From Escherichia coli (GTDB lineage: Bacteria > Pseudomonadota > Gammaproteobacteria > Enterobacterales > Enterobacteriaceae), in assembly GCF_013122565.1 (NCBI RefSeq), contig NZ_CP053258.1: DNA of 64,000 bases; one strand, written 5' to 3'. Shown here piece by piece: positions 23,908 through 33,778 of the stretch. Within the stretch, counting starts at the first letter, position 1. Each line of letters begins with the position of its first letter. Both the position numbers and the translations under genes were made by a program. The notes under the pieces are model-generated. The model had not been told where the DNA came from, ran no database searches, and was given only the letters and a program-made list of their open reading frames with translations.

Positions 23908-25257
23908 ATGTCTGAAATTGTTGTCTCCAAATTTGGCGGTACCAGCGTAGCTGATTTTGACGCCATGAACCGCAGCGCTGATATTGTGCTTTCTGATGCC
24001 AACGTGCGTTTAGTTGTCCTCTCGGCTTCTGCTGGTATCACTAATCTTCTGGTCGCTTTAGCTGAAGGACTGGAACCTGGCGAGCGATTCGAAAAACTCG
24101 ACGCAATCCGCAATATCCAGTTTGCCATTCTGGAACGTCTGCGTTACCCGAACGTTATCCGTGAAGAGATTGAACGTCTGCTGGAGAACATTACTGTTCT
24201 GGCAGAAGCGGCGGCGCTGGCAACGTCTCCGGCGCTGACAGATGAACTGGTCAGCCACGGCGAGCTGATGTCGACCCTGCTGTTTGTCGAAATCCTGCGC
24301 GAACGCGATGTTCAGGCACAGTGGTTTGATGTACGTAAAGTGATGCGTACCAACGACCGATTTGGTCGTGCAGAGCCAGATGTAGCCGCGTTGGCGGAAC
24401 TGGCCACGCTGCAGCTGCTCCCACGCCTCAATGAAGGCTTAGTGATCACCCAGGGATTTATCGGTAGCGAAAATAAAGGTCGTACAACGACGCTTGGCCG
24501 TGGAGGCAGCGATTATACGGCAGCCTTGCTGGCGGAGGCTTTACACGCATCTCGTGTTGATATCTGGACCGACGTCCCGGGCATCTACACCACCGATCCA
24601 CGCGTGGTTTCCGCAGCAAAACGCATTGATGAAATCGCGTTTGCCGAAGCGGCAGAGATGGCAACTTTTGGTGCAAAAGTACTGCATCCGGCAACGTTGC
24701 TACCCGCAGTACGCAGCGATATCCCGGTCTTTGTCGGCTCCAGCAAAGACCCACGCGCAGGTGGTACGCTGGTGTGCAATAAAACTGAAAATCCGCCGCT
24801 GTTCCGCGCGCTGGCGCTTCGTCGCAATCAGACTCTGCTCACTTTGCACAGCCTGAATATGCTGCATTCTCGCGGTTTCCTCGCGGAAGTTTTCGGCATC
24901 CTCGCGCGGCATAATATTTCGGTAGACTTAATCACCACGTCAGAAGTGAGCGTGGCATTAACCCTTGATACCACCGGTTCAACCTCCACTGGCGATACCT
25001 TGCTGACGCAATCTCTGCTGATGGAGCTGTCTGCACTATGCCGGGTAGAAGTGGAGGAAGGTCTGGCGCTGGTCGCGTTGATTGGCAATGACCTGTCAAA
25101 AGCCTGCGGCGTTGGCAAAGAGGTATTCGGCGTACTGGAACCGTTCAACATTCGCATGATTTGTTACGGCGCATCCAGCCATAACCTGTGCTTCCTGGTG
25201 CCCGGCGAAGATGCCGAGCAGGTGGTGCAGAAGCTGCATTTTAATTTGTTTGAGTAA
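23908..25257 (+). CDS. lysC: Lysine-sensitive aspartokinase III
   Basis: 449-aa ORF MSEIVVSKFGGTSVADFDAMNRSADIVL... Confidence 0.97.
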   Translation: MSEIVVSKFGGTSVADFDAMNRSADIVLSDANVRLVVLSASAGITNLLVALAEGLEPGERFEKLDAIRNIQFAILERLRYPNVIREEIERLLENITVLAEAAALATSPALTDELVSHGELMSTLLFVEILRERDVQAQWFDVRKVMRTNDRFGRAEPDVAALAELATLQLLPRLNEGLVITQGFIGSENKGRTTTLGRGGSDYTAALLAEALHASRVDIWTDVPGIYTTDPRVVSAAKRIDEIAFAEAAEMATFGAKVLHPATLLPAVRSDIPVFVGSSKDPRAGGTLVCNKTENPPLFRALALRRNQTLLTLHSLNMLHSRGFLAEVFGILARHNISVDLITTSEVSVALTLDTTGSTSTGDTLLTQSLLMELSALCRVEVEEGLALVALIGNDLSKACGVGKEVFGVLEPFNIRMICYGASSHNLCFLVPGEDAEQVVQKLHFNLFE

Positions 25258-25782: not shown

Positions 25783-26655
25783 TTAGCGCCCCTTCTTTTT
25801 ACGCCCCGGCGAGGTAAAACGCTTACCGTTGGACGCCGGGCGACCGCCTTTTTCCGCCGTTTTTTCCATCTTAACGACTGGACGTTTGATGCCTAACGTT
25901 TTCGGCTTGGCCTTCGCTTTAGGTTTTGCCTCGGAAGAGGAATTTTCGATGAGCTTAAAGAGGTCGATTAACTCATCGTCAGTTAAATCGCGCCACTCAC
26001 CCAGCGGAATGCCGCTTAAGCTGACGTTCATAATGCGCGTACGTTCCAGCTTTTTCACTTCGTAACCAAAGTGTTCGCACATGCGACGGATCTGACGGTT
26101 CAGCCCCTGCACCAGGGTAATGCGGAAGACAAACGGCGCTTCTTTTTTGACTTTGCACTTTTTCGTCACCGTCCCGAGGATCGGCACTCCCGCCCCCATA
26201 CCACGAATAAATTCATCGGTAATCGGTTTATCGACCGTCACCAGATACTCTTTCTCATGATCGTTACCCGCTCGGAGGATCTTATTCACCAGATCGCCGT
26301 GATTGGTGAGGAAAATCAGCCCCTGGGAGTCTTTATCCAGCCGGCCAATCGGGAACACGCGTTTGCTGTGGTTAACGAAATCGACAATGTTATCGCGCTC
26401 GCCATCTTCGGTGGTGCTGACAATACCGACGGGCTTGTTCAGGGCGATAAGTACCAAATCTTCGGCTTCCCGAGGCTCAATTAACTGACCGTTTACTTTC
26501 ACAACGTCGCCGGGTTTCACCTGATCGCCAATGGTGGCTCGCTTGCCATTAAGGAACACATTGCCTTGCTCGATATAGCGATCCGCTTCGCGGCGTGAGC
26601 AAATTCCGCTTTCGCTGATGTATTTATTTAAACGGACTGATGAGTCGGGCAGCAT
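25783..26655 (-). CDS. rluF: 23S rRNA pseudouridine synthase F
   Basis: 290-aa ORF with S4 domain and RsuA-type catalytic region; basic Lys-rich C-terminal tail. Confidence 0.93.
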
Positions 26656-27002
26656 AAATTCTCCTGTAAAACGCGGAATATACCGTACCTCTTAGCGGGG
26701 AAAAACAGGGTTATGCGGCAACGTCGAAATTAAATGTGATCTGCCACGCCTTTTATCACAAAAGTGTCTCCGGAAGTACGATGCAAATTTGCCTGGCAAA
26801 ATAAGGATAATCAACATATTACGAATCGCTGCACACCTGTGCTGATGACTACTACGCAGAGAAACAAATGTGCAAGAGAAAGCGCTATTTCTCCCCATGC
26901 AAAGAGTGAAAAATCGCTTTGAAAGGCCCTCATGATGGGGTTATATCAGATCAAGCGGTGAGAAAGCGTATTTGCACAGATGTGCAGAACCAGGAGGCGG
27001 CA

Positions 27003-27950
27003 ATGGAAAACAGTGACGATATCCGTTTGATTGTGAAGATTGCCCAACTCTATTACGAACAGGATATGACGCAGGCGCAAATCGCGCGCGAACTGGGTAT
27101 TTACCGCACCACCATCAGCCGCTTGCTTAAACGAGGCCGCGATCAGGGAATTGTCACCATCGCCATCAACTATGACTACAACGAAAATCTCTGGCTCGAG
27201 CAGCAACTGAAGCAAAAGTTTGGCCTGAAAGACGTTGTGGTGGTGTCGGGAAATGATGAGGATGAAGAGACTCAACTGGCGATGATGGGGTTACACGGCG
27301 CGCAACTGCTGGATCGCTTGCTGGAGCCTGGCGATATTGTCGGTTTTTCCTGGGGTCGCGCGGTGAGCGCACTGGTTGAAAACTTGCCGCAGGCGGGGCA
27401 ATCGCGGCAGTTAATCTGCGTACCAATTATTGGCGGACCGTCCGGTAAACTCGAAAGCCGCTATCACGTAAACACATTAACCTACAGCGCGGCAGCGAAG
27501 CTGAAAGGGGAATCGCATCTCGCGGATTTTCCGGCTCTGCTGGATAACCCATTAATTCGTAATGGGATCATGCAGTCTCAGCACTTTAAAACCATCTCTG
27601 CCTACTGGGATAATCTGGATGTCGCCCTGGTGGGAATTGGCTCACCGGCCATTCGCGACGGCGCTAACTGGCATGCGTTTTATGGTGGTGAAGAGAGTGA
27701 CGACCTGAATGCCCGCCAGGTTGCTGACGATATTTGCTCGCGCTTTTTTGATATTCACGGCGCAATGGTTGAAACGAATATGAGCGAAAAAACACTCTCT
27801 ATCGAAATGAATAAATTAAAGCAGGCGCGGTATTCCATTGGCATTGCCATGAGTGAAGAAAAATACAGCGGAATTGTTGGTGCACTGCGTGGAAAATATA
27901 TTAATTGTCTGGTAACGAATAGCAGCACAGCTGAACTATTACTGAAATAA
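27003..27950 (+). CDS. sorC: SorC-family transcriptional regulator of the sorbose operon
   Basis: ORF-track entry 26919-27950; start at ATG 27003 with RBS caggagg (MENSDDIRLIVKIAQLYYEQDMTQAQIAREL... HTH plus sugar-binding domain), 315 aa. Confidence 0.8.
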   Translation: MENSDDIRLIVKIAQLYYEQDMTQAQIARELGIYRTTISRLLKRGRDQGIVTIAINYDYNENLWLEQQLKQKFGLKDVVVVSGNDEDEETQLAMMGLHGAQLLDRLLEPGDIVGFSWGRAVSALVENLPQAGQSRQLICVPIIGGPSGKLESRYHVNTLTYSAAAKLKGESHLADFPALLDNPLIRNGIMQSQHFKTISAYWDNLDVALVGIGSPAIRDGANWHAFYGGEESDDLNARQVADDICSRFFDIHGAMVETNMSEKTLSIEMNKLKQARYSIGIAMSEEKYSGIVGALRGKYINCLVTNSSTAELLLK

Positions 27951-31477: not shown

Positions 31478-32707
31478 ATGAAAACAACAGCTCTGCGTCT
31501 TTATGGTAAACGTGATTTACGCCTGGAAACCTTTGATCTTCCTGAAATGCAGGAGGATGAAATCCTCGCGACGGTGGTCACTGACAGCCTGTGCCTCTCT
31601 TCCTGGAAAGAGGCCAACCTGGGTGAAAACCATAAAAAAGTACCCGACGATGTGGCGACCAACCCCATCATCATCGGCCACGAGTTTTGCGGCGATATTC
31701 TGGCCGTGGGTAAAAAGTGGCAGCACAAATTTCAGCCGGGCCAGCGCTATGTGATTCAGGCCAACCTGCAATTGCCGGATCGCCCGGACTGCCCCGGCTA
31801 CTCCTTCCCGTGGGTGGGCGGTGAAGCCACACATGTGGTTATCCCAAATGAGGTTATGGAACAAGATTGCCTGCTGGCATACGACGGCGAAACCTATTTT
31901 GAAGGCTCGCTGGTTGAACCGCTTTCCTGCGTGATTGGCGCGTTCAACGCCAACTATCATCTTCAGGAAGGTAGTTATAACCACACGATGGGGATTCGCC
32001 CGCAAGGGCGCACGCTGATCCTCGGCGGCACCGGACCAATGGGACTGTTGGCGATTGATTATGCGCTGCATGGACCAGTTAACCCGTCGCTGCTCGTCAT
32101 TACCGATACCGACAACGACAAATTGAGTTATGCGCGCAAGTACTATCCATCAGAACCGCAAACACTGATTCATTATCTCAATGCCGCCGATGCAGCATTT
32201 GGTACGTTAATGGCACTGAGTGGCGGTCACGGCTTCGATGATATTTTCGTCTTTGTGCCTAATGAAGGACTGGTGACTCTCGCCTCTTCCTTGCTGGCGA
32301 CAGATGGTTGCCTGAATTTCTTCGCCGGACCGCAGGATAAACATTTCAGCGCGCCAATTAATTTCTACGATGTGCATTATGCATTTACCCACTACGTGGG
32401 CACGTCAGGCGGCAATACCGACGACATGCGCGCGGCGGTCAAACTGATCGAAGAGAAAAAAGTGCAGGCCGCAAAAGTGGTAACACATATTCTTGGGCTG
32501 AATGCCGCGGGCGAAACCACGCTTGAATTGCCTGCCGTCGGCGGCGGCAAAAAGCTGGTGTATACCGGGAAATACCTGCCGCTGACGTCACTCACGCAGA
32601 TTCAGGATCAAGCACTGGCGGCGATTCTGGCGCGTCATCAGGGGATCTGGTCCGGTGAGGCGGAGCAATACCTGCTCGCCCATGCAGAAGCAATTTCCCA
32701 TGATTAA
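31478..32707 (+). CDS. sorE: Zn-dependent MDR-family dehydrogenase, sorbose-1-phosphate reductase type
   Basis: ORF-track entry 31466-32707; start at ATG 31478 with RBS gaggtgg (MKTTALRLYGKRDLRLETF...GHEFCGDI...), 409 aa. Confidence 0.8.
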   Translation: MKTTALRLYGKRDLRLETFDLPEMQEDEILATVVTDSLCLSSWKEANLGENHKKVPDDVATNPIIIGHEFCGDILAVGKKWQHKFQPGQRYVIQANLQLPDRPDCPGYSFPWVGGEATHVVIPNEVMEQDCLLAYDGETYFEGSLVEPLSCVIGAFNANYHLQEGSYNHTMGIRPQGRTLILGGTGPMGLLAIDYALHGPVNPSLLVITDTDNDKLSYARKYYPSEPQTLIHYLNAADAAFGTLMALSGGHGFDDIFVFVPNEGLVTLASSLLATDGCLNFFAGPQDKHFSAPINFYDVHYAFTHYVGTSGGNTDDMRAAVKLIEEKKVQAAKVVTHILGLNAAGETTLELPAVGGGKKLVYTGKYLPLTSLTQIQDQALAAILARHQGIWSGEAEQYLLAHAEAISHD

Positions 32708-32865
32708 TCGCGCTACTTAACTCTGCATGTCGCTGGCTGGTCGCCGCGGCAACTTCGCGACCTGATGTGCGGCTGATTGCAGAAGCGGCACAATGTGCAC
32801 GAGAAGGATAAAAAACATCAGCGCCTTAAGGGGCGCTCAAATTGGTAGCAAAGTGCACATTGTTT

Positions 32866-32975
32866 ATGCCGGATGCGGAATGAAGCCTTATTCGGTCTAC
32901 ATAATTTTGAAAATTCAATATATTGCAGTTATCTGGTAGGCCTGGTAAGCGTAGCGCATCAGGCAATGCTGTGTT
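32866..32975. repeat. REP elements between sorE and pepE
   Basis: gccggatgcggaatgaagccttattcggtctaca ... taggcctggtaagcgtagcgcatcaggca. Confidence 0.6.
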
Positions 32976-33088
32976 TGTCATCAGTCTCAGCGCCCGGTGC
33001 AATACGTGACATCGTGAGCCATGTCAGTAAGTGGTTAAATTCGCAGTGGTAGCATTCCTTCCGTGATTTCTTGCTAACCGGAGAAGTA

Positions 33089-33778
33089 ATGGAACTGCTT
33101 TTATTGAGTAACTCGACGCTGCCGGGTAAAGCCTGGCTGGAACATGCACTGCCGCTAATTGCTGAACAGTTGCAGGGTCGCCGCTCAGCGGTGTTTATCC
33201 CTTTCGCTGGCGTAACGCAGACCTGGGATGATTACACAGAGAAAACGGCTGCGGTTCTCGCTCCGCTGGGTGTTTCTGTCACCGGTATTCATAGCGTTGT
33301 CGATCCCGTTGCCGCGATTGAAAATGCTGAGATCGTGATTGTCGGCGGCGGGAATACTTTCCAGTTGCTGAAACAGTGCCGCGAGCGCGGGCTGCTGGCA
33401 CCAATTACTGACGTGGTTAAACGTGGCGCACTGTATATTGGTTGGAGCGCAGGCGCTAACCTTGCTTGCCCAACCATTCGTACCACCAACGATATGCCGA
33501 TTGTCGATCCGCAAGGTTTCGATGCGCTGAATCTGTTCCCGCTGCAAATCAACCCGCACTTCACCAACGCGCTGCCGGAAGGCCATAAAGGTGAAACCCG
33601 TGAACAGCGTATTCGCGAACTGCTGGTCGTCGCGCCAGAACTCACAATTATTGGTCTACCGGAAGGTAACTGGATCACAGTGAGTAAAGGTCACGCAACG
33701 CTGGGTGGCCCGAACACCACTTATGTGTTTAAGGCTGGTGAAGAAGCGGTTCCGCTGGAAGCGGGTCACCGTTTTTAA
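33089..33778 (+). CDS. pepE: Peptidase E (alpha-aspartyl dipeptidase)
   Basis: ORF-track entry 33071-33778; start at ATG 33089 ([29 protein letters not shown]...), 229 aa. Confidence 0.93.

What the first reader, a model, noticed from the sequence alone, without database searches (positions are those of the whole stretch)
26829..26986. Repeated GCACA-N2-TGTGC inverted repeats upstream of sorC: candidate SorC operators
Two near-identical short palindromes, gcacacctgtgc (26831-26842) and tgcacagatgtgca (26973-26986), plus a third half-site aatgtgcaag (26867-26876), lie in the sorC upstream region. The second is about 15 bp before the sorC RBS. A similar TGTGCAC motif recurs in the inverted repeat downstream of sorE. 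SorC-family regulators bind inverted repeats, so these are plausible operators for autoregulation.
Basis: inference. Interest (0 to 1): 0.35.

Follow-up and report, generated by a model that had tools for sequence, protein, structure and literature searches.

The report
SorC operator dyads upstream of sorC
The short palindromes in front of the E. coli sorbose-operon regulator gene sorC are real and keep their sequence and spacing in about 45 related bacteria, so they are very probably where SorC binds to control its own operon; this is an expected kind of element, but I found no published sequence for it.

Summary
GCACA-N2-TGTGC occurs exactly twice in the 64-kb window (26831-42 and 26974-85; 0.1 expected), and both copies lie upstream of sorC.

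Comparison with 44 enterobacterial sorC loci shows a 16-bp dyad, TTGCAC-N4-GTGCAA, at four fixed positions:
- O3 (26972-87) is invariant in all loci.
- O1 (26829-44) keeps the core GCAC-N4-GTGC.
Its right half is invariant, and it is a perfect dyad in Kluyvera.
- O0 (26754-69) is a new site.

O1 to O3 is exactly 143 bp in every genus except Sodalis (142), although the spacers are only about 40% identical. The core motif occurs 80 times in the 300 bp upstream of sorC, against once in about 350 kb of flanking DNA.

The dyad has the same 6-N4-6 geometry as the solved Bacillus subtilis DeoR half-operator (TTGAAC-N4-TTTCAA). It also recurs upstream of Firmicutes SorC homologues that share SorC's recognition helix.

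The interpretation as SorC autoregulatory operators is therefore supported, though binding is untested. The inverted repeat downstream of sorE is unrelated. Conserved CRP-like and IHF-consensus sites and a likely promoter complete the region. This is a new member of a known kind, of moderate interest.

The parts
26972..26987 (.). O3, the proximal operator dyad TTGCAC-AGAT-GTGCAG. Centre about +26 from the inferred transcription start. It ends 4-5 nt before the Shine-Dalgarno sequence.
   Evidence: TTGCACA-N-ATGTGCA is invariant in 42 of 42 aligned sequences, and only the central base varies. In Klebsiella-type genera its right end overlaps the SD (GTGCAGGAG).
26829..26844 (.). O1, the distal operator dyad CTGCAC-ACCT-GTGCTG.
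   Evidence: GCACA-N3-GTGC is kept in 34 of 36 non-Kluyvera sequences (single-base variants in L005 and L018) while the centre varies. It lies exactly 143 bp from O3 in all 36 of them.
26860..26875 (.). O2, an asymmetric operator AGAAAC-AAAT-GTGCAA in which only the right half-site is conserved.
   Evidence: CA-A-ATGTGCAA has conservation 0.99. It lies 112 bp from O3 and 31 bp from O1 in all non-Kluyvera loci. In Kluyvera the equivalent site is the perfect dyad TTGCAC-AAAC-GTGCAA, 101 bp from O3.
26754..26769 (.). O0, a far-upstream weak dyad TATCAC-AAAA-GTGTCT (core CACAAAAGTG).
   Evidence: The core has conservation 0.97 in 36 sequences. It is also present in Klebsiella and Kosakonia, with a variant in Sodalis.
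26919..26947 (+). Inferred sor promoter: -35 TTGAAA (26919-24), a 17-bp spacer, and -10 TATATC (26942-47). The inferred transcription start is about 26954. The conserved block GGTTATATCAGATCA spans 26939-53, and there is an A-tract at 26908-14.
   Evidence: This is the best-scoring sigma-70-like site conserved at one position on the + strand in all 42 sequences (mean 6.4 bits, minimum 3.6). The block has conservation 0.99. It is retained in the short Kluyvera region. The transcription start is not mapped.
26809..26821 (+). IHF-consensus site AATCAACATATTA (WATCAANNNNTTR), between O0 and O1.
   Evidence: AATCAR-N4-TTA sits at the same position (164 bp upstream of the start of the O3 14-mer) in 35 of 36 non-Kluyvera sequences, with a variable N4. 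It is also present in Klebsiella, Sodalis and Kosakonia. A single occurrence in the window is not significant on its own.
26732..26753 (.). CRP-like site AAATGTGATCTGCCACGCCTTT. The left half is perfect, and the right half matches 2-3 of 5.
   Evidence: TGTGATC, C at 26747 and CTTT are invariant. It scores 7-8 of 10 core matches in most genera. It is absent in Kluyvera, which lacks the catabolic genes.
27003..27950 (+). sorC, the regulator gene and first gene of sorCDFBAME.
   Evidence: It matches K. pneumoniae SorC (PDB 2W48) over the full length at E = 1.8e-182, and 68 of the first 69 residues are identical. The recognition helix GIYRTTISRLLK is invariant in the orthologues.

Best explanation
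The palindromes are operators for SorC, the regulator encoded by the first gene of the sorCDFBAME operon. The recognised element is a 16-bp dyad, TTGCAC-N4-GTGCAA, bound by a dimer of the N-terminal helix-turn-helix domains in the way B. subtilis DeoR binds TTGAAC-N4-TTTCAA.

Four sites lie at rigidly fixed distances. O3 is perfect and sits just downstream of the inferred promoter, at about +26, next to the ribosome-binding site. O2 (about -86), O1 (about -117) and O0 (about -192) lie upstream.

Inferred mechanism:
- Without sorbose, SorC tetramers (dimers of dimers, as in the K. pneumoniae crystal structure) occupy O3 together with an upstream site. This loops the 112-143 bp in between and blocks initiation or early elongation, which also sets the level of SorC itself.
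- With inducer, the tetramer interface loosens, as in CggR, and the loop opens.
- SorC dimers left on O2 or O1 then help RNA polymerase, together with CRP.
- The IHF bend between O0 and O1 brings the far-upstream CRP/O0 module into reach.

Shown: the sites, their conservation, spacing and specificity, and the link between the motif and the recognition helix.
Inferred: binding by SorC, the transcription start, looping, and the switch from repressor to activator.
For: Site statistics and conservation:
- The exact motif occurs 2 times against 0.1 expected, both upstream of sorC.
- O3 is invariant in 42 of 42 sequences, and O1, O2 and O0 are conserved as footprint islands (0.88-0.99) in an intergenic region whose mean conservation is 0.74.
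- GCAC-N4-GTGC occurs 80 times in the 300 bp upstream of sorC in 41 loci, against once in the other ~350 kb. That single outside hit is itself upstream, at -303.

Spacing:
- O1-O3 is 143 bp and O2-O3 is 112 bp, with no indels, although spacer identity to the window is about 40%.
- Kluyvera's O2-O3 distance is 101 bp, shorter by 11 bp, which is one helical turn.

Independence from context:
- The sites persist where the genomic context differs: Pantoea, Erwinia, Entomohabitans, Sodalis and Kosakonia.
- They also persist in Kluyvera, where sorDFBAME is absent but a sorC-like gene remains. The sites therefore travel with the regulator gene.

Link to the SorC protein:
- The geometry and half-site are nearly those of the solved DeoR half-operator ATTGAAC-AAAA-TTTCAAT.
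- The DeoR base-contacting residues R34 and R39 align with SorC R35 and R40.
- Five Firmicutes SorC homologues with the same recognition helix carry the same dyad within 300 bp upstream: 7 hits in 5 of 5 loci, against 0.017 expected. Two homologues with different helices do not.

Literature:
- SorC is reported to be both repressor and activator of the sor operon and to be a tetramer whose DNA-binding domains could reach two sites (PMC2943609, citing Wöhrl 1990 and de Sanctis 2009).
Against: - There are no binding data of any kind.
- The transcription start is not mapped. The strict promoter scan found nothing, and the inferred -10 TATATC lacks the usual final T. All positions relative to +1 are therefore provisional.
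- In the DeoR and CggR paradigm a tetramer binds two dyads about 22 bp apart on one face of the DNA. Here the distances are 31, 112 and 143 bp, and no partner dyad lies 21-22 bp from O3. The tetramer geometry must differ or involve looping.
- 112 and 143 bp are not whole numbers of helical turns at 10.5 bp per turn.
- O0 and O2 are weak or asymmetric and might not be bound on their own.
Confidence: 0.8

Rival explanations
1. The dyads are bound by a different, widely conserved enterobacterial regulator. The most similar known case is CytR, whose inverted operators read TTGCAT-N4-ATGCAA (from memory). On this view SorC acts elsewhere or only indirectly.
For: Conservation alone does not identify the protein. 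From memory, the CytR octamer GTTGCATT in inverted orientation differs from the SorC dyad only at the innermost base of each half. A CRP-like site lies nearby.
Against: - The bases that are invariant at O1 and O0 are the inner CAC-N4-GTG. The outer TTGCA that CytR needs is not conserved there.
- There is no pair of CRP sites flanking any dyad.
- The same dyad occurs upstream of Firmicutes SorC homologues, which have no CytR, CRP or IHF, and it tracks the SorC recognition helix.
- The sites stay with the sorC-like gene in Kluyvera.
Confidence: 0.05
2. The proximal palindrome acts as an RNA hairpin in the sorC 5' leader that controls translation or stability. The upstream copies are then coincidental or belong to a longer leader.
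For: O3 lies in the inferred 5' UTR next to the Shine-Dalgarno sequence. It can form a 7-bp hairpin in the minimum-free-energy fold.
Against: - The fold is no better than shuffled sequence (z = -1.07; 37 of 200 shuffles fold at least as well).
- There is no Rfam match.
- The stems never vary, so there is no covariation. The two O1 variants (L005, L018) break pairing without compensation.
- Identical dyads lie upstream of the inferred promoter, and in Firmicutes they overlap -35 elements.
- Helical-turn spacing is a property of DNA, not RNA.
Confidence: 0.04
3. The sites are SorC operators but work only as simple independent repressor sites. There is no looping, no tetramer bridging and no activating role. 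The upstream sites are weak decoys or relics.
For: O3 alone is perfect, while O2 and O0 are half-degenerate. Some Firmicutes loci show only one strong dyad near the promoter (L050, L052).
Against: - The 143 and 112 bp spacing is exactly invariant with no indels, despite about 40% spacer identity.
- The one change in spacing is a one-turn change, in Kluyvera.
- An IHF-consensus site is conserved between sites.
- SorC is a tetramer and a dual activator and repressor according to the literature.
Confidence: 0.1

Closest known systems
Bacillus subtilis DeoR operator of dra-nupC-pdp (SorC/DeoR subfamily; PDB 8R7Y and 7BHY)
   Same: - The helix-turn-helix DNA-binding domain is of the same subfamily, and SorC 8-56 aligns with DeoR.
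- The dyad architecture is the same 6-N4-6: ATTGAAC-AAAA-TTTCAAT in DeoR and TTTGCAC-AAAT-GTGCA in SorC.
- Five of seven half-site bases are shared.
- Both base-contacting arginines are conserved.
- One strong dyad is paired with a half-degenerate one (DeoR OL/OR; here O1/O2).
- Both proteins are tetrameric.
   Different: - The half-site differs at one key base: TTGCAC here, TTGAAC in DeoR.
- DeoR's two dyads are 22 bp apart and overlap the -35 element. SorC's four sites are 31-143 bp apart, and the best one lies downstream of the inferred start.
- DeoR is a pure repressor, whereas SorC is reported to activate as well.
- deoR is not part of the operon it controls.
Bacillus subtilis CggR operator of the gapA operon (SorC/CggR subfamily)
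   Same: - The regulator is the first gene of the operon it controls.
- The operator lies downstream of the transcription start (+32 to +77), like O3 at about +26.
- A tetramer is loosened by a sugar phosphate.
- The proposed cooperativity model has been explicitly extended to SorC.
   Different: - CggR uses a winged-helix DNA-binding domain.
- Its operator sequence is unrelated (CGGGAC...GTC).
- It has a single compact 45-bp operator, with no distant auxiliary sites.
Multi-operator looping systems in E. coli (deo operon with DeoR O1/O2/OE; araBAD with AraC O2/I1) - functional analogy only, recalled from memory
   Same: - Several operators lie at fixed helical phase around a CRP-dependent catabolic promoter.
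- In the AraC case one protein is a looping repressor without sugar and an activator with sugar.
   Different: The protein families are unrelated, and looping at sor is inferred, not shown.
CytR operators (LacI family) - sequence resemblance only, recalled from memory
   Same: Inverted TTGCA-type half-sites separated by about 4 bp.
   Different: The innermost bases differ. CytR needs flanking tandem CRP sites. The conserved core here is CAC-N4-GTG. The motif follows the SorC recognition helix into Firmicutes.

Membership tests
Operator of a SorC/DeoR-subfamily regulator | The cognate regulator has the HTH-type (sigma-70 region-4-like) DNA-binding domain plus a sugar-phosphate-binding domain. 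| tested here: met
   SorC matches 2W48 over its full length at E = 1.8e-182 and B. subtilis DeoR (8R7Y) at 4e-39. Its Pfam domains are PF04198 and PF04545.
Operator of a SorC/DeoR-subfamily regulator | A dyad-symmetric site of 6-N4-6 geometry, as recognised by a dimer of DNA-binding domains in the DeoR-DNA structure. | tested here: met
   The site is TTGCAC-N4-GTGCAA, perfect in Kluyvera O2 and in Tepidimicrobium. DeoR OL is TTGAAC-AAAA-TTTCAA.
Operator of a SorC/DeoR-subfamily regulator | The base-contacting residues of the recognition helix are conserved, or co-vary with the half-site. | tested here: met
   DeoR R34 and R39 correspond to SorC R35 and R40. An identical helix goes with the same dyad across phyla, and different helices go with no dyad.
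Operator of a SorC/DeoR-subfamily regulator | Two half-operators about 22 bp apart on one DNA face, bound by one tetramer. | tested here: not met
   Centre-to-centre distances are 31, 112 and 143 bp, and about 75 bp between O0 and O1. No conserved dyad lies 21-22 bp from O3. Only Tepidimicrobium has a 19-bp pair.
Operator of a SorC/DeoR-subfamily regulator | Specific binding by the purified regulator, relieved or altered by the effector. | not testable with these tools
   This needs EMSA or footprinting. No published SorC operator was found in nine full-text searches. PMC2943609 (2010) states that DeoR was the only other family member with an identified site.
Autoregulatory site of a local regulator (comparative-genomics criterion) | The motif is conserved upstream of orthologous regulator genes, specific to that region, and independent of neighbouring genes. 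| tested here: met
   There are 80 hits upstream against 1 elsewhere. The motif is kept in five different genomic contexts and in Kluyvera, which lacks sorDFBAME.
CRP (cAMP receptor protein) site | TGTGA-N6-TCACA at a class I or class II distance from the transcription start. | tested here: inconclusive
   The left half and flanks are perfect and invariant, and the right half matches 2-3 of 5. The centre is about -211 from the inferred start, which is not a canonical position.
IHF site | WATCAANNNNTTR with an A/T-rich 5' flank. | tested here: met
   AATCAACATATTA lies at 26809-21 and is preceded by AAAATAAGGAT. The specified bases are conserved and the N4 is variable in 35 of 36 sequences. Binding is untested, and a single match is at chance level in the window.
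Sigma-54 promoter (common at mannose-family PTS operons in other bacteria) | TGGCAC-N5-TTGCW (GG and GC separated by 10 nt). | tested here: not met
   No + strand match with 3 or fewer mismatches lies in 26656-27002. GGCAC-N4-GTGC in Klebsiella O1 has the wrong spacing.
Known structured RNA (Rfam) | A match to a covariance model, or a fold better than shuffled sequence. | tested here: not met
   There is no meaningful Rfam hit, and the fold has z = -1.07.

The most novel reading that the evidence does not exclude
TTGCAC-N4-GTGCAA may be the shared operator code of a cross-phylum clade of SorC-family regulators. This clade comprises the enterobacterial sorbose SorC and the Firmicutes glucitol-operon regulators, defined by the recognition helix GIYRTTISR(L/M)LK.

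In enterobacteria this simple autorepressor module (O2, promoter, O3) would have been extended with an O1/IHF/O0/CRP module at rigid spacing. Together they would form a loop-based switch that turns the same protein from repressor into activator.
Probability: 0.45. Interest if true: 0.55.

Novelty: new member of a known kind. Interest (0 to 1): 0.4.

Why it matters
SorC gave its name to a large family of sugar-responsive regulators and was crystallised full-length in 2009. Yet I found no published DNA target for it, and in 2010 the field stated that only CggR and DeoR had known sites.

A precise, phylogenetically validated 16-bp dyad and a four-site map give structural and genetic work something concrete to use. 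They make it possible to test how one SorC tetramer can both repress and activate, and they allow co-crystallisation or cryo-EM with the right DNA.

The near-identity of the SorC and DeoR half-sites (TTGCAC and TTGAAC), with the contacting arginines conserved, offers a one-base specificity switch for studying recognition in this family.

Practically, the region is a compact sorbose-inducible, glucose-repressible control element. It is present in about half of E. coli genomes (2872 of 5426), including uropathogenic and O157:H7 strains.

Tried and rejected
- **sorE-downstream inverted repeat as a further operator: rejected.**
  - The spacing is wrong (N1).
  - The left arm lies inside the 3' remnant of a shikimate-dehydrogenase-like gene that is intact in E. 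coli MEI003 and in Kluyvera.
  - The right arm lies in a strain-specific segment containing REP elements.
  - It is absent in Sodalis and Kosakonia.
- **Sigma-54 promoter reading of GGCAC...TGC: rejected**.
- **RNA element: rejected**.
- **An upstream + strand promoter (GATAAT 26806-11, or TTGCCT-17-CAACAT):** it scores only in E. coli and is not conserved.
- **A leftward promoter TTGATT-17-CAAATT as the reason for the conserved AATCAA and GCAAATTTGC blocks:** considered. It does not explain the conserved TTA at 26819-21, and no conserved gene lies to its left.
- **Strict consensus promoter and terminator scan:** nothing found.
- **Transcription start from published K. pneumoniae TSS data:** the supplements hold nothing on the sor genes.
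- **Original SorC papers** (Sprenger & Lengeler 1984; de Sanctis 2009): not held in the library.
- **LsrR sites as a comparator:** the one accessible footprint (the cysN box) shows no resemblance.
- **RegPrecise:** it could hold a computational SorC motif, but I could not consult it.

Full report
**Locus.** The window carries the E. coli L-sorbose island, inserted between rluF and pepE. The genes are lysC (23908-25257), rluF (25783-26655, minus strand), sorC (ATG at 27003, ending at 27950), sorD, sorF, sorB, sorA, sorM, sorE (ending at 32707) and pepE (33071-33778). SorC matches K. pneumoniae SorC, the crystallised founder of the family (PDB 2W48), over its full length at E = 1.8e-182, and 68 of the first 69 residues are identical. 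The 347-bp rluF-sorC spacer is present in 2872 of 5426 complete E. coli genomes. Genomes without the island share only the first 35 bp next to rluF (H30) and the last ~75 bp before pepE. The island therefore runs from about 26691 to about 32999, and the whole regulatory region belongs to it.

**The observation.** All three sequences are at the stated coordinates. GCACANNTGTGC occurs exactly twice in 64 kb, at 26831-42 and 26974-85, against 0.10 expected; no shuffle out of 100 gave two matches. The repeat finder pairs the two palindromes 143 bp apart, and pairs the half-site with the proximal palindrome 112 bp apart.

**Conservation.** A scan of one genome per species returned 44 loci. Of these, 41 are enterobacterial sorC loci spanning Escherichia, Pseudocitrobacter, Citrobacter, Klebsiella, Raoultella, Enterobacter, Mangrovibacter, Cedecea, Pantoea, Erwinia, Entomohabitans and Kluyvera. 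Three more (a Klebsiella-type contig, Sodalis and Kosakonia) were fetched by protein identity.
- The proximal palindrome is present in every locus, 29-33 nt before the matched start.
- In the alignment, TTGCACA-N-ATGTGCA is invariant in 42 of 42 sequences.
- The distal site keeps GCACA-N3-GTGC while its centre varies (ACCT, ATCT, AAAC, AAAA, AAAG).
- The "third half-site" CA-A-ATGTGCAA is one of the best-conserved blocks.
- The conservation profile shows sharp islands (0.88-0.99) in a region that averages 0.74.
- Between O1 and O3, the spacer columns are only about 40% identical between E. coli and other genera, yet there is not a single indel.
- O1-O3 is 143 bp and O2-O3 is 112 bp everywhere; Sodalis has 142.
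- The core GCAC-N4-GTGC occurs 80 times in the 300 bp upstream of sorC in 41 loci and once in the remaining ~350 kb. That one is a further upstream site at -303 in Entomohabitans.

**What the motif really is.** In Kluyvera the middle site reads TTGCAC-AAAC-GTGCAA, a perfect 16-bp dyad, and O3 reads TTGCAC-N4-GTGCA(A/G) everywhere. The element is therefore better described as TTGCAC-N4-GTGCAA. The order of conservation is inner CAC/GTG, then GCAC/GTGC, then the full half-site. In window coordinates the sites are O0 26754-69, O1 26829-44, O2 26860-75 (right half only) and O3 26972-87.

**Why SorC, and not another protein.**
1. **The sites travel with the regulator gene.**
   - They are kept where the neighbours differ: Pantoea, Erwinia, Entomohabitans, Sodalis and Kosakonia.
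   - In Kluyvera, sorDFBAME is absent. A 70%-identical sorC-like gene, followed by a shikimate-dehydrogenase-like gene, still has O2, the promoter block and O3.
2. **The dyad matches a solved family structure.**
   - It has the geometry and nearly the sequence of the only structurally defined operator of the same subfamily. The B. subtilis DeoR left half-operator is ATTGAAC-AAAA-TTTCAAT (PMC11229326).
   - SorC O3 is TTTGCAC-AAAT-GTGCA.
   - The DeoR residues reported to contact bases (R34, R39) align with SorC R35 and R40.
3. **The motif follows the recognition helix across phyla.**
   - A Clostridium arbusti homologue (38% identity) has the same helix, GIYRTTISRLLK, and carries ATTCAC-AAAT-GTGCAA over the -35 of a TTCACA-17-TATAAT promoter.
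   - Four further Firmicutes homologues with this helix regulate glucitol-PTS (gut) operons: Thermoanaerobacterium, Metabacillus, Tepidimicrobium and C. akagii.
   - All four carry dyads matching at least 10 of 12 positions within 300 bp upstream. Together with C. arbusti that makes 7 hits in 5 of 5 loci against 0.017 expected, and no shuffle out of 2000 reached this.
   - Further copies lie in front of the associated dehydrogenase and gutM genes.
   - Homologues with other helices lack the dyad: Gilliamella (IHRSSISRMLK) and Oceanobacillus (KSRPIVSKLLK).
   - Firmicutes lack CytR, CRP and IHF (general knowledge, not tested here), so the common factor is the SorC-type protein.

**Surroundings.**
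- **Promoter.** The best + strand sigma-70-like element conserved at one position in all 42 sequences is TTGAAA (26919-24), a 17-bp spacer, then TATATC (26942-47). It is embedded in the invariant block GGTTATATCAGATCA and preceded by an A-tract. It is also kept in the short Kluyvera region.
- **Site positions.** This predicts a start near 26954. O3 would then lie at about +26, O2 at -86, O1 at -117 and O0 at -192. The strict scan finds no consensus promoter, as expected for an activator-dependent promoter. The start is not mapped, and the final base of the -10 is atypical.
- **IHF.** Between O0 and O1 lies AATCAACATATTA (26809-21), a full match to the IHF consensus. Its specified bases are fixed and its N4 varies in 35 of 36 non-Kluyvera sequences.
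- **CRP.** At 26732-53 lies a CRP-like site with an invariant perfect left half.
- **Two modules.** Kluyvera lacks CRP, O0, IHF and O1. This suggests a core autoregulatory module (O2, promoter, O3) and an accessory module associated with the catabolic genes.
- **rluF promoter.** The leftmost conserved block (26677-82) is the -10 of the rluF promoter on the other strand.

**Mechanism.**
- The literature describes SorC as both repressor and activator of the sor operon, and as a tetramer whose DNA-binding domains could reach two sites. The CggR cooperativity model has been extended to it (PMC2943609).
- Combined with the anatomy here, the most likely mechanism is repression by a tetramer holding O3 and an upstream dyad, with the promoter inside the loop.
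- The exact spacing, and the 11-bp (one-turn) difference in Kluyvera, argue for a stereospecific complex.
- On induction, dimers remaining on O2 or O1 would activate together with CRP, helped by an IHF bend.
- This part is inference. It departs from the DeoR and CggR paradigm of two dyads 22 bp apart, which is not met here.

**Rivals.**
- A different regulator such as CytR is unlikely, because the conserved core is the inner CAC-N4-GTG and because of the Firmicutes evidence.
- An RNA hairpin is unlikely: z = -1.07, no Rfam hit, no covariation, and copies upstream of the promoter.
- A sigma-54 promoter is excluded.

**The sorE-downstream repeat.**
- The 11-bp arms at 32790-800 and 32853-63 exist, but the internal palindrome is GCACA-N1-TGTGC.
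- The left arm encodes the C-terminus of a shikimate-dehydrogenase-like gene that has suffered a ~700-bp internal deletion in this strain. That gene is intact as an eighth gene in E. coli MEI003 and in Kluyvera.
- The right arm lies in a strain-specific segment next to REP elements.
- Nothing similar follows sorE in Sodalis or Kosakonia. It is not a SorC site.

**Novelty.**
- Nine full-text searches found no described SorC operator.
- A 2010 paper states that DeoR was the only other family member with an identified binding site.
- A 2024 structural paper still lists SorC only as a free-protein structure.
- A curated computational motif may exist in RegPrecise, which I could not consult.
- The finding is an ordinary kind of element, the operators of a local autoregulated sugar regulator, but apparently an undescribed instance. 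It is unusually well supported by comparison and has an interesting multi-site architecture.

Noticed in passing
window 32700-32827: Downstream of sorE lies the remnant of an eighth gene, which is shikimate-5-dehydrogenase-like. Its first ~21 codons (32700-62) and its last ~70 bp are kept, with about 700 bp deleted between them. The gene is intact in E. coli MEI003 (L048 4028-4813) and in Kluyvera (L031 4939-5757, 86% identical).
   Followed up: yes
L031-L036 (Kluyvera), e.g. L031 3760-5760: Kluyvera has rluF, a sorC-like gene (307 aa, 70% identity), a shikimate-DH-like gene and pepE, with no sorDFBAME. It keeps two perfect SorC-type dyads 101 bp apart around the same promoter block. This looks like a two-gene SorC-controlled unit of unknown substrate.
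   Followed up: partly
window 26809-26821: A full IHF consensus (AATCAACATATTA) lies between O0 and O1. It is conserved at a fixed position in 35 of 36 enterobacterial sor regions, with a variable N4.
   Followed up: partly
window 26732-26753: A CRP-like site has an invariant perfect left half (AAATGTGATCT) and a weak right half. It is followed by an invariant CCTTT that CRP does not explain. It lies about 211 bp from the inferred start, which is non-canonical.
   Followed up: partly
window 26783-26792: The perfect 10-bp palindrome GCAAATTTGC is conserved as GCAA-N2-TTGC across genera. It reads like the outer halves of the SorC dyad turned inside out. No explanation was found.
   Followed up: no
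window 26656-26700: The left junction of the sor island is only about 35 bp upstream of the rluF start codon. The rluF promoter has its -10 (TATATT, 26682-26677, minus strand) in backbone DNA, and its -35 lies across or inside the island.
   Followed up: partly
window 32870-32990: Two REP-like elements (gccggatgcgg...cttattcggtctaca and its inverse) lie between the gene remnant and pepE. They are absent from E. coli MEI003 at this place.
   Followed up: no
L039, L049-L052: Firmicutes glucitol (gut) PTS operons start with a SorC-family regulator that has the same recognition helix as SorC. They carry TTGCAC-N4-GTGCAA dyads upstream of the regulator, and also in front of the sorbitol-6-P dehydrogenase and gutM genes.
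   Followed up: partly
L040 3870-3895 (Gilliamella): A more distant SorC homologue next to sorBAM-like PTS genes has a different helix (IHRSSISRMLK). It has a perfect dyad of the same 6-N4-6 geometry but different sequence, TTATGA-AGTA-TCATAA, 124 nt upstream of the position where the match to SorC begins. This may be its own operator.
   Followed up: no
window 26919-27005; L045 6970-7003: The mechanical ORF call for sorC starts at TTG 26919, but the real start is ATG 27003, preceded by AGGAGG. In Klebsiella-type genera the start lies two codons further upstream, and the O3 dyad then overlaps the Shine-Dalgarno sequence (GTGCAGGAG).
   Followed up: yes
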